A stretch of 32,000 nucleotides of DNA from Neisseria lisongii (GCF_028463985.1 NZ_CP116766.1:953235-985234); one strand, 5' to 3'; shown: positions 16,257-17,817, counted from the stretch's first letter. Program-made: numbers and translations. The notes: a model not told the origin generated them from the sequence alone.

Positions 16257-16597
16257 ACACAACCGTCTAAAAACAGCACCCTGAAAAAATCAGGGTGCTG
16301 CCTATGCTTTCTATTAAGAAATGTAAAATTTATTGACGTAGCAATACACTATCTAACCCCTTCCCGCCAGCGGGACGGGGAACAAAGTGCAGGTGGCCAA
16401 CTTAGCTTGCCGATTTGTACAGAAAATTCGGTGTTTTAACTATAGGTTGAGGTTAGCGAGGCACGAGCGTAACCCAATAAAACCTTATGTTTCAAGGTAT
16501 TTCCAATCGTGTTGGGTCTCGACCCAACCTTGTATAAGAAACACCAACCACAAGATAAAATAAAAAGCCCCCGACAGAAGCAGCTATCAGGGGCGGG

Positions 16598-16730
16598 ATT
16601 GAAAACAGAGTTGTACGCCAACCTTGGGCTTCAAAGCCCGCGACGTAGATAAAAGCCTGTTTTCAATGTCCAAACACCCCGAATAGTATCATAGACATGC
16701 TGTGCATAGTCTGCATTCACAAGGTTAGGA
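16598..16730 (+). ncRNA. Candidate bridge RNA of the IS110 element at 16531-17770.
   Basis: The 11-bp stem ATTGAAAACAG (16598-16608) pairs with CTGTTTTCAAT (16657-16667). The internal loop has CCAACCT (16618-16624, left flank plus CT), the hairpin GGGCTTcaaAGCCC, and CGTAG (16644-16648, reverse complement of CTACG). Then come ATAGTATC (16683-16690, the right end) and ACAAG (16719-16723, reverse complement of CTTGT). Confidence 0.55.
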
Positions 16731-16732
16731 GC

Positions 16733-17746
16733 ATGATGGACACCCCATTTTATTTTATCGGCATCGATATTGCCAAGTTAAAGTTCGATGTTGCGGTTAA
16801 AAAATCCGCAAAAGTGTATCAACACCACCAGTTTGAGAACCATCCGCAAGGTTTTGCTGCTTTGAGCGAATGGCTGAACAGCTTTTCGGATAAGCCGCTC
16901 TATATCGTGATGGAAGCGACAAACGTCTATCACGAAAGGTTGTGCGAATACTTATATGCGGCCGGACATTCGGTAGTCGTGATTAATCCCAAATGTGCCG
17001 CCAACTTTGCCAAAGGTTTGAACTTACGTTCCAAAACCGACAAAGCGGATGCCAAATTACTTGCCCGCTTAGCCGAAAGCTATGTTCATGAGTTTGACCT
17101 GTGGCAACCGAAGGGCAATAACGAAAAAGCCTTATTGCGCCAACTTCGTCATCTCGAACATTTAAAAGCAGCGCTGACCAAAGAAAAAGTCCGGCTGCAG
17201 ATGCTGTTGGACGAGTATGCGATGGCTTCGTCCGAACGTCTGATTGCTTTTCTTGAGTGCGAAGTCAAAACCGTTGAAACGCATATTCATCAGTTGGTGA
17301 AACAGGATGATCAGTTGAAACACAACCATCATCTGCTGAGCAGTATTCCCGCCATCAGCAAAACCACAGCCTGTTGGCTGCTCGCCATACTGGGCGACGG
17401 CACTCGGTTTAAAAACGGACGTGCTGCTGCGACCTACGCCGGACTGACCCCGATGGTCAGACAATCGGGAACGAGTGTAGATAAGCGGGTCGGTATCTCC
17501 CGTATCGGACAGAGTGATTTGAGGAAGATACTCTATATGCCGGCCGTGTCGTTTTGCTTTGGCAAATATAAGGACAGTATTTACAGCCCGTTTGTCCAAC
17601 GCTTGCTGGAGCGTAATAAACTGGCAAAAAAAGCCGTGATTGTGGCTCTGATGCGTAAACTCGTGACCATTGCCCAATCTGTATTGAAGTACCAACAACC
17701 CTTTAACGAAGAACGCTATGCGAAAATGTGTCTGGATAAGGCTTGA
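16733..17746 (+). CDS. IS110-family transposase/recombinase.
   Basis: 337 aa from the ATG at 16733, which has RBS aggttaggagc (the track ORF starts at 16697). Motifs: FYFIGIDIAK, VMEATNVYHE, KTDKADAKLLARL and YAGLTPMVRQSGTSVDKRVGISRIGQSDLRKILYM. Confidence 0.9.
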   Translation: MMDTPFYFIGIDIAKLKFDVAVKKSAKVYQHHQFENHPQGFAALSEWLNSFSDKPLYIVMEATNVYHERLCEYLYAAGHSVVVINPKCAANFAKGLNLRSKTDKADAKLLARLAESYVHEFDLWQPKGNNEKALLRQLRHLEHLKAALTKEKVRLQMLLDEYAMASSERLIAFLECEVKTVETHIHQLVKQDDQLKHNHHLLSSIPAISKTTACWLLAILGDGTRFKNGRAAATYAGLTPMVRQSGTSVDKRVGISRIGQSDLRKILYMPAVSFCFGKYKDSIYSPFVQRLLERNKLAKKAVIVALMRKLVTIAQSVLKYQQPFNEERYAKMCLDKA

Positions 17747-17817
17747 TTTGTTGGGGGGCTTATAGTATCTACGCCCTGTTTAAAAAAAACTGTATGAATT
17801 ATTCAGTGAATTTACTA

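What the first reader, a model, noticed from the sequence alone, without database searches (positions are those of the whole stretch)
16531..17770. Complete IS621-like IS110 element with an identifiable bridge RNA and a base-exact insertion site
Insertion site:
- The flanks gacccaacCT|...|acgccct rejoin to the intact repeat gacccaacCTacgccct seen at 25709-25723.

Bridge-RNA-like structure in the 202-nt left end:
- The 11-bp stem at 16598-16608 pairs with 16657-16667.
- The 5' loop strand carries CCAACCT (16618-16624), identical to the left flank plus core at 16524-16530.
- A hairpin follows, GGGCTT-caa-AGCCC.
- The 3' loop strand carries CGTAG (16644-16648), the reverse complement of CTACG, which is the core plus right flank at 17769-17773.
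- The second module carries ATAGTATC (16683-16690), identical to right end 17762-17769.
- It also carries ACAAG (16719-16723), the reverse complement of CTTGT (core plus left end), 10 nt before the ATG.

The element ends (..agtatCT / tgtat..) and the target (CCTACGC) look very similar to what I recall for E. coli IS621, which inserts in REP sequences.
Basis: partly seen in the sequence, partly recalled or inferred. Interest (0 to 1): 0.6.

Follow-up and report, generated by a model that had tools for sequence, protein, structure and literature searches.

The report
IS110 insertion sequence with bridge RNA
This is one of 17 copies of a small jumping gene of the IS621 type, whose own guide ("bridge") RNA spells out both the element's ends and the chromosomal repeat it inserts into. 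It is a clean new example of a mechanism described in 2024, not a new mechanism.

Summary
Window 16531-17770 is a 1,240-bp IS110-group insertion sequence.

- **Copies:** the 2.07-Mb genome has 17 full copies. All have intact reading frames and the same left end, and 16 of 17 the same right end (TGTATAAG...TATAGTATCT). They sit at sites of the form ACCCAAC-CT|ACG near the ends of a MITE-like repeat, and 34 exact 10-bp sites remain empty.
- **Recombinase:** the 337-aa protein has both IS110 Pfam domains and the IS621 catalytic residues, but is only 35% identical to IS621.
- **Bridge RNA:** a covariance model built from relatives, without IS621, finds this left end (144 bits) and the validated IS621 bridge RNA (72 bits).
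- **Structure across relatives:** 92.6% of cells pair, and 31 of 34 pairs show compensatory change.
- **Guides across relatives:** the left target guide matches the left flank at 164 of 182 positions, against 95 when guides are permuted. The donor guide recurs exactly at the right end in 33 of 33 loci.

This is a new member of a known kind; the nearest protein found elsewhere is 70% identical, from a Pasteurellaceae bacterium.

Two small oddities: the left target guide carries one extra base (G16617), and the circle-junction -35 box is displaced. The scan had already noted a bridge RNA on the adjacent prophage.

The parts
16521..16530 (+). Left target (gACCCAAC) plus the left copy of the CT core (16529-16530). 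It is the 3' arm of the repeat's hairpin GTTGGGTC-TC-GACCCAAC.
16531..17770 (+). The whole 1,240-bp IS110-group insertion sequence, counted with one copy of the CT core at its right end.
   Evidence: 17 full-length copies at 97-100% identity, all with the same left end and 16 of 17 with the same right end
16533..16538 (+). TATAAG, a -10-like hexamer at the position of the IS621 junction-promoter -10 (TATTAT). Its role is inferred, not shown.
   Evidence: promoter model from PMC11208160
16567..16594 (+). 5' stem-loop of the predicted bridge RNA. On the minus strand the same hairpin plus a T-run looks like a terminator.
   Evidence: the spurious Rfam NsiR1 hit lies here; relatives carry hairpins of different sequence at this place
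16598..16667 (+). Target-binding loop module. The closing stem pairs 16598-16608 and 16610-16611 with 16655-16667, and A16609 is bulged.
   Evidence: helices 2-3: 96% and 86% of cells paired, 11 of 12 pairs with compensatory change
16615..16624 (+). Left target guide, AC[G]CCAACCT. It has the same sense as the left flank plus core. G16617 is a one-base insertion relative to IS621 and most relatives (L095 also carries an extra base here).
16626..16639 (+). Small hairpin of the target-binding loop (GGGCT-TCAA-AGCCC).
   Evidence: helix 4: 92% paired
16644..16650 (+). Right target guide CGTAG (16644-16648; GTAG aligns with IS621 G77-G80) followed by the handshake guide AT (16649-16650). CGTAGAT is the reverse complement of the right junction ATCTACG.
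16668..16741 (+). Donor-binding loop module. The outer stem pairs 16668-16672 with 16737-16741, which overlaps the start-codon region. The inner stem pairs 16677-16680 with 16728-16731, which overlaps the Shine-Dalgarno AGGAG.
   Evidence: helices 5-7: 84-95% paired, all with compensatory change
16683..16690 (+). Left donor guide ATAGTATC, identical to the right end at 17762-17769.
16693..16712 (+). Hairpin of the donor-binding loop, with bulged A16708.
   Evidence: helices 8-9: 95-96% paired
16715..16725 (+). Right donor guide AT-(TC)-ACAAG (16715-16723) followed by the handshake guide GT (16724-16725). ACAAGGT is the reverse complement of the left junction ACCTTGT.
16733..17746 (+). Recombinase gene (337 aa from 16733; probably 336 aa from ATG 16736). 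Catalytic residues are D12, E61, D103, D106 and S245-G246.
17747..17770 (+). Right end, 24 bp. The left donor ATAGTATC lies at 17762-17769 and the CT core at 17769-17770.
17771..17777 (+). Right target acgccct.
25708..25724 (+). An unoccupied copy of the target (gacccaacCTacgccct). A second one lies on the minus strand at about 25641-25665.

Best explanation
Window 16531-17770 is an intact, recently active insertion sequence of the IS110 group. It very probably moves by bridge-RNA-guided recombination, as IS621 does.

**Inferred life cycle**
1. The element excises as a circle in which the right end joins the left end (...ATAGTATCT|TGTATAAG...).
2. The left end is transcribed into an RNA of roughly 180-200 nt: a 5' stem-loop, a target-binding loop and a donor-binding loop.
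3. [quoted passage not shown]
4. In the donor-binding loop, ATAGTATC and AT..ACAAG pair in the same way with the circle junction.
5. A tetramer of the DEDD/Ser recombinase exchanges strands after the shared CT core. The handshake dinucleotides AT and GT then pair with the exchanged strands.

The preferred site is the 10-bp word CCAACCTACG near the ends of a roughly 120-bp MITE-like intergenic repeat.

**What is shown here**
- The element's limits, copy number and sites.
- Homology of the protein and of the RNA to IS621.
- Conservation of the RNA structure.
- Covariation of the guides with flanks and ends across relatives.

**What is inferred**
- Transcription and the promoter.
- The circular intermediate.
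- RNA binding and catalysis.
For: **Element and sites**
- There are 17 full copies, all with the same left end and 16 of 17 with the same right end, and all ORFs are intact.
- All 17 left flanks end in C-CT. Fifteen of 17 right flanks begin with AC and 10 of 17 with ACG.
- 34 exact CCAACCTACG sites are empty, and 32 of them lie in one repeat family.

**Protein**
- It carries PF01548 and PF02371.
- It matches the solved ISCro4 and IS621 recombinases at E 1e-50 and 2e-45.
- The catalytic residues are conserved.

**RNA homology and structure**
- A model made from this element alone finds 47 matches at E<=0.01. All but one (a minus-strand hit inside this element's own left end) lie directly upstream of IS110 recombinase genes.
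- The second-round model, built without IS621, hits the IS621 bridge RNA region at 72 bits, E 4e-16.
- 92.6% of cells pair, against 62% when shuffled and 32-47% when slid. 31 of 34 pairs show changes on both sides.

**Guide covariation**
- The LTG matches the left flank at 164 of 182 non-core positions in 26 distinct pairs. Permuted pairs gave a mean of 95 and a maximum of 120 in 10,000 trials.
- The exact LDG 8-mer plus T recurs 850-1,500 nt downstream in 33 of 33 loci. The reverse complement of the RTG 4-mer equals the core plus 2 nt in 33 of 33, including the variants CTGA (L061) and CTAA.

**Selection within the genome**
- Left-end diversity is 0.006, against 0.044 at third codon positions.
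- None of the five variable left-end sites lies in a guide, and the two in stems keep the pair.
Against: - There is no expression data and no circle junction. The word ATAGTATCTTGTAT is absent from the assembly, as expected.
- The junction promoter is unconvincing. The canonical -35 (TTGATT) lies 24 nt from the -10, where most relatives have 17 nt, and only a weak TTGGGG lies at 16 nt. The promoter scan found nothing on the plus strand.
- Read without a gap, the LTG matches the main target at only 5 of 7 non-core positions.
- Five of 17 copies have right flanks that match the RTG poorly (TGTTT, AATCC, ACAAA, CCACT, ACTTG).
- The structure counts were made on an alignment fitted to the model, which favours the structure.
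Confidence: 0.93

Rival explanations
1. Site choice is set mainly, or jointly, by the recombinase recognising the hairpin of the repeat (GTTGGGTC-TC-GACCCAAC). The RNA guides would supply only a short match. This is the "sequence plus structure" logic reported for ISPpu10.
For: Ten of 17 insertions, and 32 of 34 empty exact sites, lie immediately 3' of that hairpin. The ungapped LTG match is only 7 nt including the core. An ISPpu10 preprint reports that a target stem-loop acts as an added specificity determinant (10.64898/2026.03.19.712850).
Against: Seven copies sit at sites without that hairpin but with the C-A-(A/C)-C-CT word. Across relatives the LTG follows the flank base by base whatever the flank is. 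This rival complements RNA guidance and does not replace it.
Confidence: 0.15
2. The element is a family of fossil copies that no longer transposes. The loop-to-flank matches would then be a record of past activity only.
For: No direct evidence of current movement exists. The junction promoter looks weakened. One copy has a damaged right end and one 241-bp fragment exists.
Against: All 17 ORFs are open, and several copies differ by only 0-6 bases in 1,240. The left end is under stronger constraint than first and second codon positions.
Confidence: 0.06
3. The structured left end is only a 5' leader that controls translation of the recombinase, and its matches to flanks and ends are coincidental.
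For: The Shine-Dalgarno sequence and the start codon lie inside the basal stems of the second module.
Against: Covariation of the guides with flanks and ends across 26-33 relatives cannot be produced by a leader function. The RNA is also homologous to the biochemically validated IS621 bridge RNA.
Confidence: 0.01

Closest known systems
IS621 of Escherichia coli (bridge recombinase and 177-nt bridge RNA; Durrant et al. 2024, PMC11208160; Hiraizumi et al. 2024, PMC11208158; PDB 8WT6)
   Same: - The gene order is the same: long left end with the RNA, then the recombinase, then a short right end.
- Both have a CT core, and the donor junction AGTATCT|TGTAT and the right target CT-ACG are identical.
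- The RNA parts come in the same order: 5' stem-loop; stem, NGU linker, LTG, U, hairpin, RTG GTAG and handshake AT; then stem, LDG (N)AGTATC, AU, hairpin, GN, RDG AU..CAAG and handshake GU.
- Both insert into short palindromic intergenic repeats.
   Different: - The proteins are only 35% identical and blastn finds no DNA similarity.
- The left target differs: ACCCAAC here, ATCAGGC in IS621.
- The LTG here carries one extra base.
- The right end is 24 bp here, against about 108 bp in IS621.
- The -35 box of the junction promoter is displaced.
- The outer stem of the donor module reaches into the start codon.
ISCro4 transposase (PDB 9T56)
   Same: It is the best match among solved structures, at E 1e-50 over residues 2-330. 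It has the same two-domain recombinase.
   Different: It is a different element in a different host. Its RNA and target were not compared here.
ISPpu9 and ISPpu10 of Pseudomonas putida (PMC12288879; 10.64898/2026.03.19.712850)
   Same: These are IS110-group elements present in several copies and inserted at one position of repetitive extragenic palindromes. In ISPpu10 a hairpin lies just 5' of the paired target.
   Different: The relationship is known to me only from those abstracts. No sequence comparison was made here.
Unnamed IS110 transposases of Pasteurellaceae (Pasteurellaceae bacterium 15-036681, 70%; Glaesserella parasuis and Pasteurella skyensis, 52%)
   Same: These are the closest proteins in the 5.8-billion-protein collection.

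Membership tests
IS110 family, IS110 group (bridge recombinase with left-end bridge RNA) | N-terminal RuvC-like DEDD domain (PF01548) with the four acidic residues | tested here: met
   PF01548 matches at E 4e-27. D12, E61, D103 and D106 align with IS621 D11, E60, D102 and D105 and are invariant in 18 relatives.
IS110 family, IS110 group (bridge recombinase with left-end bridge RNA) | C-terminal Tnp domain (PF02371) with the catalytic serine | tested here: met
   PF02371 matches at E 7e-21. S245-G246 align with IS621 S241-G242 and are invariant.
IS110 family, IS110 group (bridge recombinase with left-end bridge RNA) | Scarless site-specific insertion around a 2-nt core, with no target-site duplication beyond the core and no terminal inverted repeats | tested here: met
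   CT occurs at 16529-30 and at 17769-70. The rejoined flanks equal the unoccupied repeat copies. The ends TGTATAAG and TATAGTATCT are not inverted repeats, as the sequence shows directly.
IS110 family, IS110 group (bridge recombinase with left-end bridge RNA) | Structured non-coding RNA in the left end with a target-binding and a donor-binding loop, homologous to the IS621 bridge RNA | tested here: met
   Model R2 scores 144 bits on this element and 72 bits on the IS621 bridge RNA. The parts align one to one. Structure covariation supports it. Rfam 15 holds no matching family.
IS110 family, IS110 group (bridge recombinase with left-end bridge RNA) | Loop strands complementary to target and donor, each including the core | tested here: met
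   In this element: LTG 7 contiguous nt (9 with one bulge), RTG 5 nt, LDG 8 nt, RDG 2+5 nt, and both handshake guides. Across the family the relation holds as well.
IS110 family, IS110 group (bridge recombinase with left-end bridge RNA) | Circular intermediate whose right-end/left-end junction rebuilds a sigma-70 promoter for the RNA | tested here: inconclusive
   The -10 TATAAG is in place. The TTGATT box lies 24 nt away instead of 17, and a weak TTGGGG lies at 16 nt. The circle itself cannot be tested with these tools.
IS110 family, IS110 group (bridge recombinase with left-end bridge RNA) | RNA is expressed, binds the recombinase and directs recombination | not testable with these tools
   This needs RNA sequencing, binding assays and recombination assays.
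IS621 itself (same IS or isoform) | Near-identity of DNA and transposase to IS621 | tested here: not met
   Protein identity is 35%. blastn found no match in 5,426 E. coli genomes.
IS1111 group (seekRNA downstream of the transposase, subterminal inverted repeats) | Long non-coding region and guide RNA 3' of the transposase gene | tested here: not met
   The right end is only 24 bp (17747-17770), and the structured RNA lies in the 202-nt left end.

The most novel reading that the evidence does not exclude
The left target guide of this element carries a one-base insertion (G16617) that IS621 and most relatives lack. With that G looped out, the guide reads ACCCAACCT, exactly the preferred 9-nt left target. 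The dinucleotide AC at target positions -9/-8 recurs in 14 of 17 sites from about four unrelated contexts.

If the complex really tolerates a bulged guide nucleotide, this would be a natural case of bulge-tolerant bridge-RNA targeting. It could also explain the element's spread over at least six different left-target words. A related possibility is that the outer stem of the donor module, which sequesters the Shine-Dalgarno sequence and start codon, makes folding of the bridge RNA and translation of the recombinase mutually exclusive on one transcript.
Probability: 0.3. Interest if true: 0.4.

Novelty: new member of a known kind. Interest (0 to 1): 0.27.

Why it matters
- **A compact natural test case.** This is an IS621-type system in a Neisseria commensal, with a short 24-bp right end, 17 natural insertion sites and 34 empty exact target sites in one genome. 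Together these give a ready-made map of on-target and off-target choice for one guide.
- **Annotation.** It explains 17 "IS110 family transposase" genes and their non-coding leaders, and it shows that a MITE-like repeat is their landing pad.
- **No change to the model.** The finding confirms the accepted bridge-recombination model in a new lineage. The nearest relatives are in Pasteurellaceae, which hints at transfer between families that are both commonly described as colonising animal mucosa.

Tried and rejected
- **Rfam 15 at a permissive threshold** gave only two sub-threshold chance hits. NsiR1 matched the minus strand of the 5' stem-loop, and sau-6072 matched a terminator. No bridge-RNA family matched.
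- **blastn of the element** against E. coli genomes, plasmids and phages found nothing.
- **The genome-contig scan** with the single protein returned only relatives at 29-38% identity.
The DNA of the 66-70% relatives could therefore not be examined.
- **MAFFT plus RNAalifold** on 14 left ends recovered only the target-loop stem and 3 pairs of the donor hairpin, because the hairpins were misaligned. I replaced this with a hand-drawn structure on this element and two rounds of covariance-model search.
- **The first-round model** (single sequence) did not reach IS621 at E<=0.01. The second-round model did.
- **The promoter scan** of the integrated copy found no plus-strand promoter.
- **The MFE fold** of the left end pairs the 5' stem-loop with the donor module. 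I rejected it in favour of the comparative structure.
- **Covariation between copy-specific left-end variants and their own flanks:** none was found. The guides are invariant in all 17 copies.

Full report
**1. The observation**

The only correction is that the intact repeat lies at 25708-25724, one base wider at each end than stated. The ORF of 337 aa (16733-17746) follows a 202-nt left end, and only 24 nt lie between the stop codon and the right boundary.

**2. Limits, copies and sites**

A DNA search of the window's own 2,065,000-bp genome found 17 full-length copies at 97-100% identity and one 241-bp right-end fragment.

- All copies begin TGTATAAG, and 16 of 17 end TATAGTATCT. One copy has a damaged last few bases.
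- All 17 reading frames are open.
- Every left flank ends C-CT. The commonest left target is ACCCAAC-CT (9 copies). The others are ACTCAAC, CCACAAC, ACCACAC, ACCCACC, ACTCACC and CCGCACC.
- Fifteen right flanks start with AC and ten with ACG.
- The exact 10-bp word CCAACCTACG occurs 34 times unoccupied. Of these, 32 lie at the same place in a repeat of about 120 bp, directly 3' of the hairpin GTTGGGTC-TC-GACCCAAC.
- The rejoined flanks of this copy match those empty copies at 55-58 of 60 positions on the left in 18 cases. On the right the match is continuous for about 16 nt, up to a length difference in an A-run.

The insertion is therefore base-exact, with only the CT core present on both sides.

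The genome uses the AG-type Neisseria DNA uptake sequence: 1,575 copies of AGGCCGTCTGAA. I did not verify that name.

**3. The protein**

- Pfam finds DEDD_Tnp_IS110 and Transposase_20.
- Among solved structures the best matches are the ISCro4 transposase (E 1e-50) and the IS621 transposase (E 2e-45).
- I fetched a real IS621 copy from E. coli E2865 (L049). Its protein is 35% identical over 328 residues.
- D12, E61, D103, D106 and S245-G246 align with the IS621 catalytic residues D11, E60, D102, D105 and S241-G242. All are invariant among 18 relatives.
- Outside this genome the nearest protein in the large collection is 70% identical (a Pasteurellaceae bacterium). The next are 66% and 56%.
- Among 175 other genomes of the same family, the best is 55%, in another genus. 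Nothing in the same genus exceeds 39%.

**4. The RNA**

Rfam has no family for it.

I drew a structure for 16591-16745 from the published IS621 anatomy (PMC11208158) and built a model from this element alone.

- That model found 47 matches at E<=0.01 in 100 sources. All but one (a minus-strand hit inside this element's own left end) lie just upstream of IS110-type recombinase genes.
- On the 33 best matches, 92.6% of cells form standard pairs. The controls gave 62% when shuffled and 32-47% when the partners were slid. In all, 31 of 34 pairs show changes on both sides. The caveat is that this alignment is fitted to the model.
- An independent MAFFT/RNAalifold run had already recovered the target-loop stem, with compensatory changes in 12 of 13 predicted pairs.
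- A second model built from those 33 sequences, which do not include IS621, scored 143.7 bits on this element and 72.1 bits (E 4e-16) on L049 1504-1665, the experimentally defined IS621 bridge RNA.

| IS621 part | IS621 positions | Window positions |
|---|---|---|
| Linker (CGU in IS621, TGT here) | C47-U49 | 16612-16614 |
| LTG | A50-U58 | 16615-16624 |
| RTG (GTAG) | G77-G80 | 16645-16648 |
| Handshake (AU) | 81-82 | 16649-16650 |
| LDG | A123-C130 | 16683-16690 |
| RDG | A157-G165 | 16715-16723 |
| Handshake (GU) | 166-167 | 16724-16725 |

**5. Do the loops really read the DNA?**

In each relative I placed the boundaries using donor information only. The left boundary was the reverse complement of the RDG found upstream. 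The right boundary was the exact LDG 8-mer plus T found downstream.

- The LDG word recurred 850-1,500 nt downstream in 33 of 33 loci, giving element lengths of 1,175-1,300 bp.
- The reverse complement of the RTG 4-mer equalled the core plus the next two bases in 33 of 33 loci. This includes the two variants: CTGA in L061 and CTAA in the neighbouring element.
- The seven non-core LTG bases matched the left flank at 164 of 182 positions in 26 distinct pairs. With guides permuted among loci the mean was 95 (sd 5.9, maximum 120 in 10,000 trials).
- Donor changes are tracked as well. ATGGTATC, ACGGTATC and ATAGTATC right ends each go with the matching LDG. CTTAT left ends go with ATAAG in the RDG.

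**6. Selection within the genome**

Among the 17 copies, nucleotide diversity differs sharply by region:

| Region | Diversity |
|---|---|
| Left end | 0.006 |
| Codon positions 1+2 | 0.014 |
| Codon position 3 | 0.044 |

Only five left-end sites vary, and none is in a guide. C16606T keeps the pair as U-G, and G16655A turns a U-G pair into U-A. A non-coding region more constrained than the protein fits an RNA that each transposing copy needs.

**7. Peculiarities**

(a) *Extra base in the LTG.* The LTG has one extra base, G16617, relative to IS621 and most relatives (one relative, L095, also has an extra base here).
- Read without a gap, it matches the main target at 5 of 7 non-core positions.
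- With the G looped out, it matches at 7 of 7.
- The looped-out reading fits 14 of 17 sites better.
- Whether a bulge is tolerated is unknown.

(b) *Poor right flanks.* Five copies have right flanks that fit the RTG poorly, while all have a fair left target. This may reflect dominance of the longer left guide, later rearrangements, or the "half-match" events reported in a 2026 preprint. I saw only that preprint's abstract (10.64898/2026.08.31.748434).

(c) *Displaced -35 box.* In most relatives a TTGAC-type -35 box lies 15 nt before the right boundary. The circle then carries TTGACN-17-TAT(T/A)(G/A)T, as described for IS621 (PMC11208160). Here, and in a few relatives, the box lies 7 nt further away, and only TTGGGG sits at 16 nt. 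Expression is therefore the weakest link in the argument.

(d) *Translation signals inside the RNA.* The basal stems of the donor module include the Shine-Dalgarno sequence and the start codon. This suggests that the folded RNA and the translated mRNA are alternative states of one transcript. That is inference only.

**8. Comparison and verdict**

The element works like IS621 and belongs to the same group of the IS110 family. It is not IS621: the proteins are 35% identical and there is no DNA similarity. It is not of the IS1111 type, because the guide RNA lies upstream of the gene and the right end is only 24 bp.

Bridge RNAs have been predicted for thousands of IS110 elements (PMC11208160). 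This is therefore a new member of a known kind, carefully and correctly read by the first stage. The same scan had already noted a bridge RNA on the adjacent prophage recombinase. My models hit that site too, at 15174-15318.

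Noticed in passing
window 15174-16354: A second bridge-RNA-like structure lies at 15174-15318 (R2 75 bits) upstream of another IS110-type recombinase gene (15309-16256, 32% identical). 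Its donor guide ACACTATC recurs at 16346-16353, and the reverse complement of its target guide, CTAACCC, equals the 7 nt from 16353 on. The stretch occurs twice in the genome. Earlier notes of this scan call it the integrase module of a 6.8-kb filamentous prophage at 9547-16354. The IS studied here sits 176 bp to its right.
   Followed up: partly
window 24085-25002 (minus strand): A third IS110-family reading frame, 34% identical to the one studied (tblastn). Neither covariance model hit near it, so its guide RNA, if any, is of another type or too divergent.
   Followed up: no
window 16440-16530 with 17771-17810, and 25640-25725; about 32 further places in the genome: A MITE-like intergenic repeat of about 120 bp. 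Both of its ends carry inverted copies of ...CAACCT-ACGCC, and the IS uses both ends as landing sites. Its own origin and mobility are unknown.
   Followed up: partly
window 16567-16594: [quoted passage not shown] It could stop read-through from the recombinase antisense strand, and it caused a spurious sub-threshold Rfam NsiR1 hit.
   Followed up: no
G000:C1:1291646-1292885 and G000:C1:1515881-1516121: One copy ends ...TAGTAAAT instead of ...TAGTATCT and has an unrelated right flank. Separately, a 241-bp right-end fragment stands alone. These look like decayed or rearranged copies.
   Followed up: no
G000:C1:500135-501374, right flank: The right flank reads ACTTGTTATTAACCCAACCT|TGTTACTATT. 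A second CCAACCT-TGT junction lies 20 nt downstream, as if another element or remnant had used the neighbouring target.
   Followed up: no
protein level: The closest relatives of the recombinase are in Pasteurellaceae (70%, 52%), not in Neisseria, where no species representative exceeds 39%. This suggests transfer between the two families.
   Followed up: no
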